Positions 26,701 through 38,700 of a DNA stretch of 64,000 bases are shown here, piece by piece. This DNA comes from a bacterium (GTDB lineage: Bacteria; RBG-13-61-14; DATKZS01): NCBI GenBank assembly GCA_963674965.2, contig CAXXFL010000007.1:704001-768000 (forward strand), read 5' to 3'. Positions within the stretch are counted from its first letter, which is position 1. Each line of letters starts with the position of its first letter. Position numbers: made by a program.

Positions 26701-29700
26701 GTGTATTTCGAGAGCGAGGCCGCGAGCCTTTCCAACTCCTTGAGATAATATTTCTCCACGCCGTCGGCGTTTACCCTTCTGGGGATTCGGAGGCAGTCGT
26801 AATACTCGATACTGTCCATGAACTTGAAAATAAGGTCCATGCACCTGGTGGTGTCGCACGCGTAGGGGATAATGACGCCGTCGATGAAATCGAGCTCGCC
26901 TCCCTCGGCCAGCTCGACAACTCCCCTCGAGTAGGAACAGGCGAACCCCTGCATGTGCTTGTCGGCCAGGTTAAAGGCGACTTCCTTGCCCAGGAGAGTC
27001 ACCGGGATGGCCCCCGCCGCGTGCACGAGCTCGGGCGGAACGTCGGTCAGAACGAGACCTATGGCCTTTTTGCCGCTCTCGTTCTTTATTGCCTTGATAG
27101 AGTCCTCGGGCTTTCGCCAGGCGGACCTTATTTGCTCCTTCAGACCTTCTTTCACTTAATACCTCCCATTCGAGAATTATGTAAACTTCACCGGCCATTT
27201 CGGCTCGAGGACCTCGGCCACGGCCGCTCCCTTCAAGGTTTTTCCCCCCATCTCGATCTCTTCGAGACGGAGGTTTCCGAACTTGGCGCCCACGTATACC
27301 TTTCCCGACTCCGCGCAGAACTCTCCCGACGTAAGCAGGCATGGCGCCGAGTCGTCGGGCACGGCCCACCATATTTTGACTTTTTCTTCGCCCAGGCTCG
27401 AGGACGCCCCCAAAAGGGGCCTGGTCAAGGCCCTCACCAGGTTATACGCGTCCCATGAGCTTGCTTTCCAGTCGATAAAGGACGATCCCTCATCCACCGG
27501 CCCCAGCGTCGCGTCCGGGTTTATGGCGAAATCTTCGGCGCCTTCCTGGTGGCCGCCAAGAAGGCTCGCCTCCTCGAGCAGGGGCAGGGTCGCGTCGGCC
27601 AGCTTTTTGTAAAGCCTGGCCGTCGCGTCGTCTTTGCCTATCCATATCGAGTTGGCCCCCATCACGCGGGCGGAGCCGTCCAGCTGATATTGGAAGAGGG
27701 TCACGCCCGTCTTTCTTTCGCCCTTGATGATGGTCCAGGGCACGGAGTCGCGCCCGAAGAATTCGGGTTTTATCGCCGGATGAGCCACGAAGAAACCATC
27801 CCCCGCGGCCTCGGCCATTTCCCTCGATACGACCTCGGGGAAATCCAGGGCGAAGACCATTTCCGAGCCGGACACGAGACCCCCGGCGTCGGCTGGGGCC
27901 ATGGACGGCGAAGACTCGGCCTCGATCCCCTTGCCGGAGCAGAATTCGAGCACGGGGACGAGATCGCCTTGCTCGCGAGTCACCACGAGCGAGACCTCTA
28001 TACCCCTTCGAAGAAGGGCCCTAAGGCCCGAGACGCCAACGTCGCCGTTGGCAAAAACAACGGTCTTCAAATTATTTTTTCCCTCGCCCTTTGCCAGGGC
28101 CTCAAAATAGCCGCGTCACGCGCGGCGTTACACCTTTCAACATTCCTTTTTACGGGTCCGCTCGCCGGGGGCCTTGGGTTTGTCCACGATGGTCTCGAAG
28201 CCCCTCTTGTTCCAGGCCGTCATTCCGCCCTTCAGCGAGAACGTGTCGCCCCCGAGATAATCGAGCATTCCCAGCGCCGCCAGGGACCTTATGCCCCGCT
28301 TGCAGACGAAAACGATCTTACCCTCGCGTCCCTTAATAAGTTCCGGCCCTTCTTGCCTGACTCGCTTAAGGGGAAGGAGTATGGCGCCGGGAATCCTTCC
28401 TTCCGTCCCCTCGTATTCATTTTTCGTTCTCACGTCAATGACGAGCGAGGTCTCGCCGGCCGCCATCCATCGGTGAAGTCCGTCAACGTCGACAACCTTG
28501 CGCCTCAGGGAGCGCAATCTTAGAAACCACGGCCATACCGACGATCCGGTTTTTTTCACGATAGGTCCTTTGGCCCCCGATCGGGCCTTTACGAATTATA
28601 GACCATTTTTCATGGCCGGTAAAAATCAAGTTGAGGACGGGGCAGCGAAAAACGGCGTGTCGTCCGGATGGCCCACCGGCCTCGGGATTTGATGGCGTTG
28701 GAAGAAAATCCCTTTGCCGACTCTCGGAGCCGATCTATTATCTTGCCGGCGCCGCCTTGGAAATCGTAAAGCGCGCTTATGGCGCGCGGAAAAAGAATCG
28801 ATTACCCGAGAAGTTTTGCAAGGGAACAAGCTGGACTTTCCACTTGGTTTGGGTCCGTCGAAACAAGGGAGATTATACCCCCACATGCACTGGATCCGGC
28901 AAAACCGCAGAATTTTCTTGCGGGCTAAGAGTGGAGCGTCTTGGGGATGGTCCCAAAAGGCCGCGTTGTTTTCCAATGTTCCCTTGTATTATAAGGGGCT
29001 ATTTTTTCTCGCGTTTTAAAAAAGATGATTATCCATTCGGTCAAAGGCGCGGCTTATTTTTCTAACCGTCCGGTATAATTATATTTTCCTCTTGAGAGGA
29101 ATTTAAAAAAAATATGCCAAGGGACTTGACAAGGTAATGTCCCTGTGTTAAATAGAATGTAAGAATCCGTATTGGATTCTCAAAAACTTTTAAGGAGGGA
29201 AACAATGGAGTACACGACACCGACACTGAAAGAGCATGGAAAGCTGAAAACAACCGCCGCTGAGTCCACCACGGTAACCTACTACTGGTAATCGTAAGGT
29301 AGCGGCAAAAAACCGCAATGATCTGAACGGTAACTGAAAACTTATGATATAAGATCACCTTGATCGGCAGCTTGCGTTTGGACATTTATAAAAGGGATGG
29401 AGCGAGATAGTAATCCTAAACCACTCTAATCCCTTTTCTTGTCCATAAGACGGTTTTCGTTACACTAAGATCGACACCGCTTGAGGCAGGTTTCCTTGCC
29501 CGGCTTATAAAGCAGAGTCAAAACTCCGCTTTCAGGCTTGGCAAGGGGCCTGCTTCATTCGGTTAAAACGACATGTATAACGGTATAATCCGATGGAAAA
29601 ACAAGATATATTTCAAAAAGAAGACAGAATATCGTGGAAAAAAGTGGAGGATAACAAAAAGGTTATCATCCTTAACCTGGGCGATGGGGACTTCTTTTCG

Positions 29701-35700: not shown

Positions 35701-38700
35701 CCGTAACTTCGGCGTTACCGAGAACTGCGCCGACTGCAAGTATAGAAGGACCGGCAACTGCTCCGGCGGCTGCCTGGTGCGCAACATGCGCGCCTGGAAA
35801 TAGGAGATTGGCCTTGTCAAGCGGTATCAAGGAAAAGTCCGGGTCCGAGCTTAGAGGTCTTCTCGACGGCCTCGAGTCGGTCTCCCGGCCGGAAAAAGAG
35901 GAAATCCTGGGCGCGGCCATCGCCTCGGGATCGGCCGAGACGCGCAAAAAAGCTCTGTCATTGATGGACCCAGTCAGCGTGGACGCCCTTTTGCCGGAAC
36001 TGGTGAAAACCCTGGCCGACGAGGACGATGATAACGCCCTTATGGCCTGCCGGCTCCTGGCCCGCCATCCCCTGACCGGCTTTTTCATGAGGGAGGGACC
36101 GGAGCCCGACCGGTCCGCCGGCGTGAAGGACGTTTATTTCACCGACGACCAGATCAGACGGACAAGGGACGCCTTCGACGGCCTGGCCCGGGGCATGGAC
36201 CAGAGGAAGCGAGACCTTTTAATGGAGCTTCTGTCCATGATGGACGGGCTGGATAACGTGACCGACCTCACTCGGATCGGCGCCGGGATCGAGGACGAGA
36301 GCAGGTACCAGGCCCTTCGCCTGATGCGGGAGAGGAACGTCTACCCTCCCCAGGTCACGGCCGTGCTCAACTACAACTGCAACAAGAAGTGCCCGTACTG
36401 CTTTACCGAGGAACTCCTGCACCAGCTCCCGGCCCCCACCACCAGGGAGACCTTTATGAAGGTCCTGGACTGGGCCGCCGCCGCGGGGGCCGACCGGCTG
36501 CCCGTGACGGGAGGCGAGCCCACCCTGCACGGCAACGTGCTCGAGTTCGCCCGGGCCGTCCGGGAAAAGGGCATGAAGACCTTCTTCTCCACCAACGCCC
36601 TCGGGCCGGAGGCCATATACGACGAGCTGCCGGCGGAGGCCGTGCAGTCGATCACGGTCCACGTCCTGGATGAGGACGAGTACGTCGAGGGGGAGAGGCA
36701 AAGGGCGGAGCGGAACCTTAAGGTCCTCAAGGACCGGGGCTTCGAGATCATCTTCCGCTACGTGCTGGCCAGAAAGGACGTCGAGAAATGGACGACCCTC
36801 CTCGAGCTGGCCGACAAGATAAGGCCCGCATCCGTGTCCTTCAGCCCCGCCTTCCCAGGGCCGGGACGGGCCGACATGTCCCGGGAGGTCAGGAGCATCA
36901 TCGACATGAAGCGCGACGTGACCCGCCTGATCGACGAGCTCGACGCCCTCGGCTACCGGGCCATACTGGCCAAGCCCATACCCCTTTGCATGTTCGACCG
37001 GGAGGAGCTATTGGTCTACTCCTCGCGGGCCTTCCTTAAAAACGTGTGCGAAATCTACCGAAACGGCTACACCAACAACGTGCTAGTCAACCCCGACCTC
37101 ACCGTCTTTCCCTGCATGGCCCTCTCCCTGCCCGGAGGCGACCTGAAAAAACTGAAGGACCTTCGCGACCTGGGCAAATGGTCCCGCTCCCTCGTCGAGC
37201 CCCTCCAGGTCAAGGTCCTCCTGCCCGAGTGCGAGACCTGCCAGCTATGGCACATGAAACTGTGCCAGCCCGCCTGCCTCAGCTACTGCCTCACCCCCGA
37301 CCAGCTCGCCGGCCCCGCCCCCAGGTGCTGAGACCGCCCCGAACGCGCTAAAACCAATACCCGCCGGAATAAAGCGCCGGGCGGGAGAAGCGGCTTGGGG
37401 GGAGCGACGCGTGAAAGTGAGAGGTCGTGAGCGCGGGAATTCTTCGGGTTCCCGCCTTTTAAATATAGCGCCGACGCGATATTATAAGAAAACCATGAGT
37501 GGAATACGCCAATACGCCGCGGTAATTATCATGACTCTTTTCCTCGCCGCGTTGCTTGTCCTTTTCGGCCGGGTTGACGAGACGGCGGCTGGGGAGGAGG
37601 CGGCAAAGCCGGAACTGGTCGTTCAGACCGGGCACGATTTCTGGATAAGGGGACTCGCGGTCAGCGGGGACGGAAGACTCTTGGCCACCGCCGAGTCTTG
37701 GAGTGACGTAAAGCTTTGGGACGCGAAGTCCGGCCGTCTGATCAGGAACTTTATTTGCAAAGACCCGATCTGCGTCGCGCTAAGTCCGGACGGCGGGCTG
37801 CTTGCGTGCGGCGACTATAACCGAACGATAAAAATCTGGGACACGTCCTCCGGGAAACTGGTACGTGAACTTAAAGGCCACGCCGGCAGCATCAACTCGG
37901 TCGCCTTCAGCCCGGATGGAAAACTTCTCGCGTCGGGATGCGGCGACCTTACTATAGTATTCGAGCCAGGCGCGTACGGTCTTCCATGGGGAAGCGGAGA
38001 TTGCACCGTCAAGTTATGGGACGTCGAGTCCGGCAAATGTCTATCCACTCTCAAGGGACACGATAAAGACGTCAACGCGGTGGATTTCAGCCCCGACGGC
38101 AAACTGATTGCTTCGGCCGGCAATGACGGGACCGTAATCCTCTGGCAAGCCGCGACGGGACGTGTCGTCCACAGGATTCAGGCCCACTCTTACAAGGGCC
38201 ATCCCGCTCGTTCCCTGTCGGTTCGTTTCAGTCCGGACGGAAAACGGGTGGCAAGTGGAGGAGAATTTGAACTGAAAATTTGGGACGTCGAGTCGGGGGA
38301 ACTCATTAGGGAGTTCAACAGTTCCTACAGCGAGGTGTTTAGCGTCTCATTCAGCGGTGATGGAGAGCTTGTCGCGGCCGGCGGACGAGGCATCCTCGTC
38401 TATCACGTCGGATCGGGGCAAAGAGAGAGATACTTTGATACTGACAATGGCCTTCTCACGCCGGTCGCTTTCAGCCCGGATGAGAAAATCTTGTATTACG
38501 CCTGCTACGAAGTTGTCTCCGAGGATTTGGAAACGGGCAATCGGATATGGAAAGCGGAAGCTCACAAGTTGACGACGCATTGTATCTCCGTCGGCAAGGA
38601 TGGACGCTATCTCGCCTTGTCCGGTTGCGAGAGGAACTCGGCTAAAATCTGGATATGGGGCTTGAAGTCGGGCGGCCTTGTAAAAAAGATTGGCCCTGAC

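What a model noticed while it worked through the whole genome (the two positions that open the first line are those of the whole stretch)
29206..37331. Radical-SAM peptide cluster with lasso-type leader machinery but no cyclase
A 28-codon gene with a strong ribosome-binding site precedes genes for a PqqD-like peptide-binding protein, a transglutaminase-like protease, kinase-like and nucleotidyltransferase proteins typical of lasso-peptide clusters, and three radical SAM enzymes. No lasso cyclase is present and the core peptide cannot form a lasso ring. The cluster probably makes a new kind of modified peptide in which lasso-type leader recognition and removal serve radical SAM chemistry.
Evidence so far: ORF and GGAGG; PqqD E 1.3e-13, NTP_transf_5 E 1.9e-32, Kdo E 1.2e-10, B12-binding plus Radical_SAM, Transglut_core3 E 3.1e-6, two Radical_SAM; ApyD-like E 3.8e-63. 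Asn_synthase: 4 matches, none on this contig. Absent from 12 relatives.
(Added by a program. Inside this text positions count along the whole contig: contig position 704,001 is position 1 of the stretch shown here. "Call 12" and the like, gene names such as g00115 and contig names such as C1 are that model's own, and its searches are not shown. The text may have been shortened before it was handed on; [...] marks where a part breaks off. The agent that wrote the report below was given it as the finding of a first reader that could run no searches.)

Follow-up and report, generated by a model that had tools for sequence, protein, structure and literature searches.

The report
Cyclase-less lasso-like radical SAM peptide cluster
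A conserved nine-gene operon encodes a small tyrosine/threonine-rich peptide plus lasso-type leader-binding and leader-cutting proteins, three radical SAM enzymes, two kinases and a nucleotidyltransferase but no lasso cyclase, so it probably makes an undescribed kind of modified peptide.

Summary
All reported domain hits were reproduced.

Metagenome contigs carry the same nine genes in the same order. A profile of the small peptides finds 49 more homologs (E 3e-19 to 8e-4). A profile built without the window's peptide finds that ORF as the only hit in the whole genome (E 3.4e-10).

The family has an invariant leader, [YF]xxPxLKKHGKLKxxA. Its core is 33% Thr and 24% Tyr, typically ...YTYTYIT. 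No Asp/Glu sits at core positions 7-9 in 0 of 53 sequences. No asparagine-synthase-like cyclase lies in the window or in any related contig.

The protease is a genuine, divergent relative of lasso B2 proteins.

Looser relatives with poly-Tyr precursors occur in Acidobacteria, Bacteroidales, Desulfobacterota and Nitrospinota.

No description was found in eight literature searches. The chemistry is inferred, not shown: Tyr beta-methylation, Tyr cross-links and phospho-decoration of Thr.

The parts
29126..29154 (+). Candidate sigma-70 promoter: TTGACA (29126-29131), 17-nt spacer, TAAATA (29149-29154)
   Evidence: Read directly from the sequence. The consensus scan did not list it, because its -10 rule needs T at position 6. 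Inference only.
29160..29182 (.). Palindrome (GAATCC-N-GGATTC type) between the candidate -10 and the RBS; possible operator or 5'-UTR hairpin
   Evidence: Listed as a 9-pair stem on the - strand; sequence. Function unknown.
29192..29198 (+). Ribosome-binding site AAGGAGG, 6 nt before the ATG
29205..29291 (+). Precursor peptide, 28 aa. Predicted leader MEYTTPTLKEHGKLKTTA, predicted core AESTTVTYYW (cut site inferred).
29292..29592 (+). Highly structured 300-nt spacer between the precursor and the enzyme genes, including a long hairpin at about 29482-29560. Likely sets the precursor:enzyme transcript ratio (inferred).
   Evidence: RNA fold -107.7 kcal/mol, z -6.3, 0 of 100 shuffles as stable. 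No Rfam family at E<0.1. Unique in the genome. Relatives have spacers of only about 100-200 nt.
29593..29880 (+). Discrete PqqD-like RiPP recognition element (lasso B1-type), 95 aa
   Evidence: PF05402 50.7 bits. NCBIfam lasso_PqqD models at 1e-7 and 2e-6, below cut-off. 43-53% identical to the syntenic homologs. Alignment A5. Complex prediction with the precursor gave weak support.
29877..31001 (+). NTP_transf_5 nucleotidyltransferase, 374 aa, GDIDI motif at residue 129
   Evidence: PF14907 113 bits. Motif kept in 5 of 5 family members.
31089..32150 (+). HPr-kinase-like P-loop kinase, up to 353 aa. The true start may be further downstream, since homologs align from residue ~40.
   Evidence: Hpr_kinase_C 23.2 bits and HprK_rel_A/B 30/25 bits, all below cut-off. 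Walker A GDSGAGKS at residue 182, as G-E-K-x-A-G-K-S-T in relatives.
32132..33049 (+). Kdo/RIO-type protein-kinase-fold kinase, up to 305 aa (start uncertain)
   Evidence: PF06293 41.6 bits. HGDxxxxN present in 6 of 6 and the DFD motif conserved.
33059..34372 (+). Cobalamin-dependent radical SAM enzyme, 437 aa, CxxxCxxC at residue 193
   Evidence: B12-binding 68 bits + Radical_SAM 78 bits. Best NCBIfam hit is ApyD, 213.9 bits (cut-off 750). PDB sequence hits 9ccb, TokK.
34369..34866 (+). Lasso-B2-like transglutaminase-fold cysteine protease, 165 aa, Cys98/His133
34859..35803 (+). Radical SAM/SPASM enzyme 1, 314 aa from ATG 34859. No N-terminal RRE; CxxxCxxC at residue 10; 8 conserved C-terminal Cys.
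   Evidence: Model pLDDT 92.9. Best fold match SuiB, E 1.4e-10, TMq 0.72.
35808..37331 (+). Radical SAM/SPASM enzyme 2, 507 aa. It has a ~185-aa N-terminal extension of no known family, CxxxCxxC at residue 191 and 7 invariant C-terminal Cys.

Best explanation
This is a biosynthetic operon for a ribosomally made, heavily modified peptide (a RiPP) of an undescribed family.

Shown:
- The nine genes are conserved as a unit, in this order: precursor, PqqD-like RRE, NTP_transf_5, HPr-kinase-like kinase, Kdo-type kinase, B12-radical SAM, lasso-B2-like protease, and two radical SAM/SPASM enzymes.
- The precursor family has an invariant leader, [YF]xxPxLKKHGKLK-x-x-A.
- It has a variable 10-18-residue core made mostly of Thr and Tyr, with YxY or YY in 52 of 53.
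- No lasso cyclase is present, and no ring-forming Asp/Glu sits in the core.

Inferred mechanism:
(1) The discrete RRE binds the YxxP part of the leader. It presents the peptide to enzymes that have no RRE of their own; SPASM enzyme 1 starts directly at its Fe-S motif.
(2) The B12-radical SAM enzyme C-methylates the core. By its nearest characterised relative, ApyD, this is most likely at the beta-carbon of Tyr in a YxY motif.
(3) The two SPASM enzymes make carbon-carbon or carbon-oxygen cross-links on the Tyr ladder.
(4) The HPr-kinase-like kinase and the nucleotidyltransferase phosphorylate a Ser/Thr hydroxyl and then decorate the phosphate, as in paeninodin and pseudomycoidin. The C-terminal residue is Thr in 32 of 53. 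The second kinase adds another phosphate.
(5) The B2-like cysteine protease, helped by the RRE, cuts after the invariant Ala.

The window's product would then be a modified AESTTVTYYW.
For: Synteny. tblastn of the window's proteins was run on 26 of the 80 metagenome loci (L090-L115).
- All nine genes, in order, are in L093 and L096.
- L092 has the first eight; its contig ends 267 nt after SPASM-1.
- L091 runs NTP5 to SPASM-2, and its contig starts inside NTP5.
- L090 runs HprK to SPASM-1.
- Seven short contigs hold B12/B2/SPASM-1 pieces in the same order.
- Identities to the window are 27-57%.

Precursor.
- Homologous ORFs sit upstream of the RRE in L092, L093 and L096.
- A profile search found 49 proteins with E 3.4e-19 to 7.6e-4 in a database of 5.8 billion.
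- P, L, GKLK and Ala are invariant in 53 of 53.
- The core is 33% T, 24% Y, 12% V and 9% S.
- YxY occurs in 47 of 53; YxY or YY in 52 of 53. Cys occurs in 1 of 53. There are 42 distinct cores.
- The leave-one-out HMM gave a single genome-wide hit, E 3.4e-10.
- Neither Pfam nor NCBIfam covers these peptides.

Not a lasso peptide. D/E at core positions 7-9 occurs in 0 of 53, and in at most 2 of 53 for other cut sites. There is no Asn-synthase homolog in the 64-kb window or in L090-L115.

B2 protease.
- 11 of 11 members hit PF13471.
- Cys98, His133 and Trp135 are invariant in 29 sequences.
- The profile finds 2,709 representatives at E<=1e-3.
- The 142 hits listed after the eight top-scoring, family-level ones all match NF033537 at E<=1e-3, with the same invariant C, H and W.

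Catalytic motifs are intact in every enzyme.

RRE-leader binding. Complex prediction on the L093 pair gave weak support.
- The score was 0.50, against 0.01 for the best of 3 controls.
- The mark was reached by 116 of 157 solved complexes and 2 of 215 mismatched pairs.
- At 0.60 or under it was reached by only 18 of those 157, and by both mismatches that passed.
- The runs agree in >=84% of contacts, and the partner's pLDDT is >=53.
- My own 4-row alignments were used, so the counts hold only roughly.
- Like complexes are solved, so the pass may come from memory.

Analogies.
- ApyD makes beta-methyl-Tyr in a GYLYD motif, and the two Tyr of YLY are then cross-linked (bioRxiv 10.1101/2023.10.30.564719, passages).
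- HPr-kinase homologs phosphorylate the C-terminal Ser of lasso precursors, and a nucleotidyltransferase adds hexose to that phosphate (PMC8498205, passages).
- The SPASM-1 model's best fold match is the cross-linking maturase SuiB.

Wider support. SPASM-1 homologs were found with HprK-like, NTP5, B2 or RRE genes in 14 of 80 genome loci. YxxP-leader, poly-Tyr-tailed small ORFs were found in 11 of 17 loci examined.
Against: - No product, transcript or enzyme activity has been observed.
- The B12 enzyme scores 213.9 bits against ApyD's 750-bit cut-off and lacks ApyD's RRE part. The methylation site is therefore only a guess.
- SPASM-1 and SPASM-2 match no curated RiPP-maturase model above cut-off. 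Fold likeness to SuiB does not fix the chemistry.
- The window's own peptide ends in Trp, not Ser/Thr, so C-terminal phosphorylation cannot be the universal role of the kinases.
- Thr at leader position -2, invariant in lasso leaders, is present in only 32 of 53 (K in 11, A in 6). The cut site is therefore uncertain.
- The B2 hit is only just above Pfam's cut-off (27.5 vs 26) and below NCBIfam's (23 vs 33). Structural matches to transglutaminase-fold proteases are weak: no Foldseek match at E<=0.001, and VIA Z at most 5.5.
- No transporter or immunity gene is conserved in the family.
- L090 lacks SPASM-2 in the 7.4 kb after SPASM-1.
- The 53 peptides are not independent, since near-identical sequences are included.
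- The poly-Tyr filter selects for the feature it reports. It also let through ORFs that look spurious.
Confidence: 0.7

Rival explanations
1. The product is a small peptide-derived redox cofactor, made like PQQ or mycofactocin, rather than a released bioactive peptide. In those pathways a PqqD-like chaperone, a radical SAM/SPASM enzyme, a peptidase and a transferase act on a Tyr-containing tail.
For: No transporter or immunity gene is conserved in the window's family. The best NCBIfam and PDB sequence hits of SPASM-2 are to PqqE (45 bits; 6c8v, E 6e-7). The substrate is Tyr-rich. The logic of the PQQ and mycofactocin pathways is recalled, not taken from a call.
Against: The PqqE hits are far below cut-off (45 vs 381 bits). 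The cores vary in length (10-18 residues) and sequence (42 distinct cores among 53), unlike the fixed reaction sites of cofactor precursors. Relatives in Bacteroidales and Desulfosarcina carry ABC exporters inside the cluster. No partner dehydrogenase is conserved beside the operon.
Confidence: 0.12
2. The kinases serve dehydration rather than decoration. Thr/Ser would be phosphorylated and the phosphate eliminated, as in class III/IV lanthipeptide synthetases, giving dehydrobutyrines that the radical SAM enzymes or Tyr side chains then attack.
For: The core is Thr/Ser-rich, with 3-7 Thr+Ser in 48 of 53. The Kdo-type kinase gives weak hits to the kinase parts of class III/IV lanthionine synthetases (E 6e-6 and 2e-3).
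Against: Those hits are far below cut-off (25 vs 575 bits) and reflect the shared kinase fold. No lyase or cyclase domain is in the operon. Cys is present in only 1 of 53 cores. The HprK-like/NTP_transf_5 pair has a documented phospho-glycosylation role in lasso clusters (PMC8498205, passages).
Confidence: 0.08
3. It is an ordinary lasso peptide cluster whose cyclase is encoded elsewhere in the genome.
For: The genome has two full-length Asn-synthase genes (C1, 325 bits; C4, 240 bits). The leader has the lasso-like YxxPxLx3G pattern.
Against: D/E at core positions 7-9 occurs in 0 of 53, and 47 of 53 cores have no acidic residue at all. No cyclase lies on any of the syntenic contigs, one locus spanning 21 kb. 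Both genomic Asn synthases keep the N-terminal CGI nucleophile motif of true glutamine amidotransferases and sit on contigs without any B2-like gene.
Confidence: 0.03
4. The small ORF is a chance ORF and the enzymes act on something else, or the locus is a decaying remnant.
For: The window's ORF is the shortest of the family (28 aa) and lacks the Lys/Glu-rich N-terminal part of the others.
Against: The leave-one-out HMM gave a single hit genome-wide, E 3.4e-10. The position before the RRE is conserved in three contigs. All eight enzyme ORFs are intact with their catalytic motifs. There is a strong RBS.
Confidence: 0.02

Closest known systems
Lasso peptide clusters with split B1/B2 and HPr-kinase-homolog plus nucleotidyltransferase tailoring (paeninodin, pseudomycoidin type)
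   Same: A discrete PqqD-like RRE. A transglutaminase-fold B2 cysteine protease with conserved Cys/His. A leader with YxxPxLx3G. An HPr-kinase-like P-loop kinase and a PF14907 nucleotidyltransferase (PMC8498205 and PMC10885120, passages).
   Different: No Asn-synthase-like cyclase and no ring-forming Asp/Glu. Gly-to-Thr spacing is one residue shorter, and Thr(-2) is not invariant. There are three radical SAM enzymes and a second, Kdo-type kinase. No ABC exporter. The B2 family is a tight, separate clade: 8 representatives at >=115 bits, then a drop to <=83 bits.
Aminopyruvatide (apy) pathway of Burkholderia thailandensis: ApyD (B12-radical SAM) and ApyO (P450)
   Same: The best curated match of the B12 enzyme is ApyD. 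ApyD beta-methylates Tyr in a Tyr-x-Tyr motif whose two Tyr are then cross-linked. The present cores carry YxY in 47 of 53.
   Different: The score is far below the ApyD cut-off (213.9 vs 750 bits), and only profile positions 27-434 of 645 are matched. No P450, MNIO or ApyS-like methyltransferase was found in the operon. Cross-linking would have to be done by the SPASM enzymes.
Radical SAM/SPASM peptide cross-linkers (SuiB of streptide, SkfB, CteB, PqqE; triceptide cyclophane synthases, the last recalled only)
   Same: A CxxxCxxC motif plus 7-8 conserved C-terminal Cys. The SPASM-1 model matches SuiB (E 1.4e-10, TMq 0.72), SkfB, anSME, CteB, ChlB and PqqE. The substrate is aromatic-rich.
   Different: No curated maturase model is reached. 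SPASM-1 has no RRE domain. SPASM-2 carries a 185-residue N-terminal extension with no family. The cores have no Cys, Lys-Trp or other known target motif.
Desulfosarcina variabilis cluster (L012; also L016) found here
   Same: It carries a B2-like protease, PqqD, Kdo-type kinase, NTP_transf_5, B12-radical SAM, a SPASM-1 homolog (34% identity), an HprK-like domain (fused to a second NTP_transf_5) and a YxxP-leader precursor ending ...SYVYYYYSY.
   Different: It also has an Asn-synthase-type gene with an intact glutamine-amidotransferase domain, an ABC transporter and a formyltransferase. It lacks SPASM-2 and the HGKLK leader motif. It is itself uncharacterised as far as the searches show.

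Membership tests
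Lasso peptide biosynthetic cluster | RRE (B1/E) that binds a YxxP leader | tested here: met
   PF05402 50.7 bits; NCBIfam lasso_PqqD models at 1e-7 and 2e-6, below cut-off. YxxP (F in 6, L in 1) in the leader and invariant P in 53 of 53. Binding was only predicted, with weak support.
Lasso peptide biosynthetic cluster | B2 transglutaminase-fold cysteine leader peptidase (C96) | tested here: met
   PF13471 27.5 bits (cut-off 26) and 11 of 11 relatives hit. Invariant Cys/His. The profile retrieves proteins of which 142 of 142 match NF033537. The window protein itself is below the NF033537 cut-off (23 vs 33), so it is a divergent relative and not an equivalog. Protease activity was not tested.
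Lasso peptide biosynthetic cluster | ATP-dependent lasso cyclase (Asn-synthase homolog) in the cluster | tested here: not met
   The 4 PF00733 matches in the genome are all on other contigs. tblastn with three Asn synthases finds nothing in the 64-kb window or in L090-L115.
Lasso peptide biosynthetic cluster | Core with Asp/Glu at position 7-9 for the macrolactam | tested here: not met
   0 of 53 for the predicted cut site; at most 2 of 53 for neighbouring cut sites.
Lasso peptide biosynthetic cluster | Thr at leader position -2 | tested here: inconclusive
   With the cut placed after the invariant Ala, position -2 is T in 32, K in 11 and A in 6 of 53. The cut site is not known.
Phosphorylated / phosphoglycosylated lasso tailoring (HPr-kinase homolog + PF14907) | HPr-kinase-like kinase and NTP_transf_5 beside the precursor; a C-terminal Ser as acceptor | tested here: inconclusive
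   Both enzyme types are present (PF14907 113 bits; Hpr_kinase_C 23 bits, below cut-off, with an intact P-loop). The C-terminal residue is Thr in 32 of 53, never Ser, and Trp in the window.
ApyD family (NF050148, Tyr beta-C-methyltransferase) | Score above the curated equivalog cut-off; RRE-containing B12-radical SAM | tested here: not met
   213.9 bits vs 750; profile positions 27-434 of 645 matched. It is the best match among 31 families, so this is a lead for function and not membership.
Sactipeptide / ranthipeptide maturase systems | Cys in the core for thioether links; maturase models PapB, SCIFF, StsB | tested here: not met
   Cys in 1 of 53 cores. PapB 42 bits vs 340; SCIFF 31 vs 425; StsB 42 vs 625.
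PQQ / mycofactocin cofactor pathways | PqqE or MftC equivalog; fixed Glu/Tyr or Val-Tyr reaction site | tested here: not met
   PqqE 45 bits vs 381; MftC 25 vs 265. The cores are variable.
Triceptides (three-residue cyclophane RiPPs) | A 3-CyFE radical SAM enzyme and repeated aromatic-x-x motifs | tested here: inconclusive
   YxY motifs fit the pattern. No triceptide maturase model appeared among the 25 best of 53 NCBIfam hits shown for SPASM-1. The family definition is recalled, not taken from a call.

The most novel reading that the evidence does not exclude
This is the founding genome-resolved member of a new RiPP class. In it the lasso B1/B2 leader-recognition and leader-removal module has been uncoupled from the lasso cyclase. 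It is instead wired to three radical SAM enzymes and a phospho-transfer module that turn a Tyr/Thr ladder (YTYTY) into a methylated, cross-linked, phospho-decorated peptide. It would be one branch of a much wider, unrecognised superfamily of poly-Tyr RiPPs. Those share a YxxP leader and SPASM-1-type enzymes and occur in Acidobacteria, Bacteroidales (including gut and rumen MAGs), Desulfobacterota and Nitrospinota.
Probability: 0.55. Interest if true: 0.85.

Novelty: new variant of a known kind. Interest (0 to 1): 0.72.

Why it matters
A 2023 review treats transglutaminase-fold (C96) leader peptidases as peculiar to lasso peptides (PMC10885120, passages). A conserved family that keeps B1 and B2 but drops the cyclase would show that the module is portable. 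It would also give a leader/protease pair for engineering non-lasso peptides.

The cluster combines three radical SAM enzymes, two kinases and a nucleotidyltransferase on a 10-18-residue Tyr/Thr core. That predicts chemistry not yet seen together in one RiPP, possibly radical SAM rather than P450 Tyr-Tyr cross-links.

The precursor family has a sharp sequence signature (HGKLK). It can be mined directly from peat and wetland metagenomes.

The looser poly-Tyr relatives suggest a large unexplored group. RRE-Finder's "false positive" lasso RREs next to radical SAM enzymes may partly belong to it.

Tried and rejected
- Expression data: the look-up of sequencing runs listed 3 holders from one study, and no RNA holder was listed.
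- ESM Atlas on the N-terminal 185 residues of SPASM-2 gave no usable hit. Pfam gave only HEAT_EZ at E 0.23.
- A PDB sequence search with the B2 profile returned only 9htu, an amidase, at E 0.13 and no lasso B2 chain. Foldseek on the B2 model (pLDDT 89.7) gave no match at E<=0.001. VIA-wide gave a top Z of 5.5-5.1 for protein 4.2, 3isr, LapG and 3kd4, all transglutaminase-fold but under the tool's Z 8 guide.
- The word-indexed search with the B2 profile returned only the 30 tight-family proteins.
- Looking for precursors upstream of SPASM-1 homologs in 13 loci without lasso-like accessory genes gave nothing recognisable. Those loci often have a small PqqD-like gene just upstream (21 loci), but their substrates remain unknown.
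- The formyltransferase-like and rhodanese genes upstream of the precursor are not found near any relative. The WD40 gene downstream is not conserved either. All three were left out of the cluster.
- The intergenic hairpin matched only a plant miRNA model, at E 0.15, which is chance.
- A midpoint-rooted FastTree of 97 SPASM-1 homologs put the accessory-bearing loci in several neighbouring clades, with Bacteroidales apart. No support values were examined, so no donor or direction is claimed.
- Literature: eight full-text searches found no description of the HGKLK or YTYTYIT peptides or of this gene set. PMC10352776 (passages) had nothing relevant. PMC11537843 is not held. Supplementary files were not searched, so a listing in a genome-mining supplement cannot be excluded.

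Full report
THE OBSERVATION

The + strand of window 29126-37331 carries one operon.

A 28-codon ORF (29205-29291, MEYTTPTLKEHGKLKTTAAESTTVTYYW) follows AAGGAGG at a 6-nt spacing. The stated start, 29206, is one base off. The ORF sits in an AT-rich stretch: GC is 0.44 for 29000-29999, against 0.53-0.66 in the 1-kb bins from 20000 to 28999 and 0.54-0.65 in the operon bins. Upstream I read TTGACA-17 nt-TAAATA (29126-29154) and a palindrome (29160-29182). The consensus scan listed the palindrome but not the promoter.

A 300-nt spacer follows the ORF. It folds far better than shuffles: -107.7 kcal/mol, z -6.3, 0 of 100 shuffles as stable. It matches no Rfam family and is unique in the genome.

Eight genes follow, with overlapping or nearly touching ends.
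- PqqD (50.7 bits).
- NTP_transf_5 (113 bits).
- An HPr-kinase-like P-loop protein (below cut-off).
- A Kdo-type kinase (41.6 bits).
- A B12-binding radical SAM enzyme. Its best curated match is ApyD (213.9 bits, cut-off 750).
- Transglut_core3 (27.5 bits, cut-off 26).
- Two radical SAM proteins with Cys-rich C-terminal parts.

Catalytic motifs are intact:
- GDSGAGKS in the HPr-kinase-like protein.
- HGDMQPLN and IDFD in the Kdo-type kinase.
- GDIDI in the nucleotidyltransferase.
- CxxxCxxC in all three radical SAM enzymes.
- Eight and seven conserved C-terminal Cys in the two SPASM-type enzymes.

IS THE SMALL ORF REAL, AND IS THE CLUSTER CONSERVED?

SPASM enzyme 1 (314 aa) has 254 homologs at E<=1e-5. 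Thirteen of them are 44-60% identical. The gene is absent from all 12 other genomes of the window's small phylum.

A scan of one genome per species matched 588 stretches, of which 539 were confirmed and 80 were kept. It found nothing above 38% identity. A metagenome scan matched 186 stretches, confirmed 98 and kept 80. It gave contigs at 45-49% identity.

I ran tblastn of the window's proteins on 26 of those 80 loci (L090-L115). The result:
- L093 and L096 have all nine genes in the same order.
- L092 has the first eight, and its contig ends just after SPASM-1.
- L091 runs NTP5 to SPASM-2, with its contig starting inside NTP5.
- L090 runs HprK to SPASM-1 and has no SPASM-2 downstream.
- Seven short contigs carry B12/B2/SPASM-1 pieces in order.

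The flanks differ between contigs. The window's WD40, rhodanese and formyltransferase-like neighbours are not shared.

In L092, L093 and L096 a small ORF precedes the RRE and aligns with the window's peptide. A profile of the four peptides found 49 more proteins of 44-98 aa, with E-values from 3.4e-19 to 7.6e-4 against 5.8 billion sequences. An HMM of 51 of these peptides, built without the window's own, was run against all 158,919 six-frame segments of the genome. It hit only the window's ORF, at E 3.4e-10. The precursor is therefore established by homology, position and RBS.

THE PEPTIDE FAMILY

Across 53 sequences (49 plus the window and three loci; 42 distinct cores, so not independent) the leader reads [YF]-x-x-P-[ET]-L-K-K-H-G-K-L-K-[NS]-[TKA]-A. 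P, L, GKLK and the final Ala are invariant.

This matches the lasso pattern YxxPxLx3G. The pattern is recalled; YxxP as the lasso recognition sequence and the invariant Thr(-2) are confirmed in passages of PMC12710340 and PMC10885120. The Gly-to-Thr distance is one residue shorter here, and the Thr is present in only 32 of 53.

After the invariant Ala the sequences vary in length (10-18 residues). Their composition is 33% Thr, 24% Tyr, 12% Val and 9% Ser. Most end in ...YTYTYIT. A subgroup that includes the window ends in ...TT-x-TYY[YW]. YxY occurs in 47 of 53, and YxY or YY in 52 of 53. Cys occurs in 1 of 53. The one outlier, P0169, is the weakest hit.

No core has Asp/Glu at positions 7-9, and 47 of 53 have no acidic residue at all. 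A lasso macrolactam is therefore excluded as the family's modification.

Cyclase evidence points the same way:
- The genome's four Asn-synthase matches lie on other contigs.
- The two full-length ones start with the glutamine-amidotransferase CGI motif.
- tblastn with three Asn synthases finds nothing in the 64-kb window or in L090-L115.

THE LASSO-TYPE PARTS

The protease was the weakest annotation, so I tested it in four ways:
- All 11 family members hit PF13471.
- Cys98, His133 and Trp135 are invariant in 29 sequences.
- A word-indexed profile search returned only 30 proteins, all of the tight family, and 28 carried PF13471.
- An exhaustive profile search of 1.84 billion representatives gave 2,709 hits at E<=1e-3, 34 at 1e-10 and 7 at 1e-30. 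Scores drop sharply from >=115 bits (eight representatives) to <=83 bits.

The 142 proteins listed after those eight all match NCBIfam lasso_biosyn_B2 at E<=1e-3. They share the same invariant Cys, His and Trp. The protein is thus a divergent member of the lasso B2 superfamily.

Its model is confident (pLDDT 89.7), but solved structures give only weak matches. Foldseek finds none at E<=0.001. VIA gives Z 5.5-5.1 to protein 4.2, 3isr, LapG and 3kd4. These are all transglutaminase-fold proteins, which is consistent but below the tools' guides.

For the RRE, complex prediction on the L093 RRE and precursor gave weak support:
- The score was 0.50, against 0.01 for the best of 3 controls.
- The mark was reached by 116 of 157 solved complexes and 2 of 215 mismatches.
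- At 0.60 or under it was reached by only 18 of the 157, and by both passing mismatches.
- The runs agree in >=84% of contacts, and the partner's pLDDT is >=53.
- My own shallow alignments were used.
- Similar complexes are solved, so the pass may be from memory.

THE CHEMISTRY (INFERRED)

[quoted passage not shown] The two Tyr of that motif are then joined by a P450 (bioRxiv 10.1101/2023.10.30.564719, passages). The present cores are built of YxY, and no P450 is present. I therefore propose Tyr beta-methylation by the B12 enzyme and Tyr cross-links by the SPASM enzymes.

The SPASM-1 model (pLDDT 92.9) is closest to SuiB (E 1.4e-10, TMq 0.72). SkfB, anSME, CteB, ChlB and PqqE follow. Sequence profiles agree, but weakly. 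SPASM-1 has no RRE domain, which fits use of the discrete RRE.

HPr-kinase homologs phosphorylate the C-terminal Ser of lasso precursors, and a nucleotidyltransferase adds hexose to that phosphate in pseudomycoidin (PMC8498205, passages). Here the C-terminal residue is Thr in 32 of 53, but Trp in the window. An internal Thr/Ser target is therefore equally possible. None of this chemistry is shown.

A WIDER SUPERFAMILY

HMMs of the eight proteins were run over the 80 genome loci. At least one of HprK-like, NTP5, B2 or Kdo lies beside the SPASM-1 homolog in 14 of 80 loci. A SPASM-2 homolog at >=118 bits is present in 10.

Unbiased clustering of small ORFs recovered a six-locus peptide cluster. 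A targeted filter ([YFW]xxP plus at least 3 Tyr/Trp in the last 14 residues) then found candidates in 11 of 17 loci. The filter selects for the feature it reports and also passed some spurious-looking ORFs. The candidates are:
- Syntrophobacteraceae: ...SYEKP...VVYYYYLF.
- Desulfosarcina: ...AYEPP...SYVYYYYSY.
- Terracidiphilus and other Acidobacteriaceae: ...AYVKPTVTKHAAATQ...YYI.
- Nitrospinota.
- Bacteroidales: ...SYAQPQTVKHGS...TTLYYYH.

The Desulfosarcina variabilis cluster also encodes B2, PqqD, Kdo-type kinase, NTP5, B12-radical SAM, an HprK-NTP5 fusion, an ABC transporter and an Asn-synthase-type gene with an intact amidotransferase domain. The window's family therefore looks like one sharply defined branch of a broad group of poly-Tyr RiPP clusters. 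That group shares the YxxP leader and SPASM-1-type enzymes, and its members keep or lack B2, cyclase-like and exporter genes.

WHAT IS KNOWN

- A 2023 review describes transglutaminase-like C96 proteases as the lasso peptidases (PMC10885120, passages).
- RRE-Finder noted that about half of the ~8,000 proteins hit by its discrete lasso-RRE model lack peptidase and cyclase. About 300 of them sit beside radical SAM enzymes, and all were treated as false positives (PMC7470986, passages).
- A 2025 study states that the YxxP-type recognition sequence is spread over several RiPP classes (PMC12710340, passages).

Eight full-text searches found no description of these peptides or of this gene set. Supplements were not searched.

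VERDICT

The cluster is real, conserved and not a lasso cluster. It is best filed as a new variant within RiPP biosynthesis, with lasso-type leader handling coupled to radical SAM and phospho-transfer chemistry on a Tyr/Thr ladder.

Confidence that this is a functional RiPP operon of an undescribed family is high (about 0.85). Confidence in the specific reactions is modest. The main rival is a cofactor-like product, suggested by the lack of an exporter.

Noticed in passing
window 29292-29592: The spacer between the precursor and the RRE gene is 300 nt and very strongly structured (z -6.3). The three syntenic relatives have spacers of only about 100-200 nt, so this element is specific to the window's copy.
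   Followed up: partly
own genome C2:701028-703096 (outside the window): A second, two-gene cassette pairs an HPr-kinase-like protein (347 aa) with a radical SAM/SPASM-like protein (342 aa). It gave weak tblastn hits to the window's HprK-like and SPASM-1 proteins. No precursor was looked for.
   Followed up: no
own genome C6:1060396-1068116 (outside the window): The genome's strongest Transglut_core3 match (63 bits, 169 aa) lies here. Judging by their N-terminal sequences only, its neighbours look like a sulfotransferase, a GHMP-type kinase, a B12-radical SAM enzyme and a carbamoyltransferase. No Asn synthase is on that contig. It may be a cell-surface locus or another cyclase-less B2 system.
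   Followed up: no
whole genome: tblastn with the B12-radical SAM protein gives 40 further loci at E<1e-3 across all seven contigs. That is an unusually large complement of cobalamin-dependent radical SAM genes.
   Followed up: no
L012:474-13739 and L016 (Desulfosarcina): This cluster joins an Asn-synthase-type gene that keeps its glutamine-amidotransferase domain (GATase_7, 9e-42) with B2, PqqD, a poly-Tyr precursor, radical SAM enzymes, kinases and a formyltransferase. The single Asp of the precursor lies too close to the YxxP motif for a canonical lasso ring.
   Followed up: partly
L093:12430-13737(-), L091:7140-8273(-), L096:9366-11075(-): Glycosyltransferase genes (Glyco_trans_1_4; a weak PMT_2 hit) lie convergent just after SPASM-2 in three relatives. 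L093 also has an ABC transporter about 2 kb further on. None is present in the window.
   Followed up: partly
L013, L015, L020, L023, L030, L033, L034, L036, L050-L052, L061 and others: In 21 loci without lasso-like accessory genes, a small (~85-110 aa) PqqD-like ORF ends right at the start of the SPASM-1 homolog. Their substrates were not identified.
   Followed up: partly
window 37411-39681 and 21919-25407: Two large repeat proteins flank the operon. One is a 756-aa WD40 protein with an N-terminal hydrophobic segment; the other is a 1,162-aa HEAT-repeat protein on the opposite strand. Neither is conserved near the relatives.
   Followed up: no
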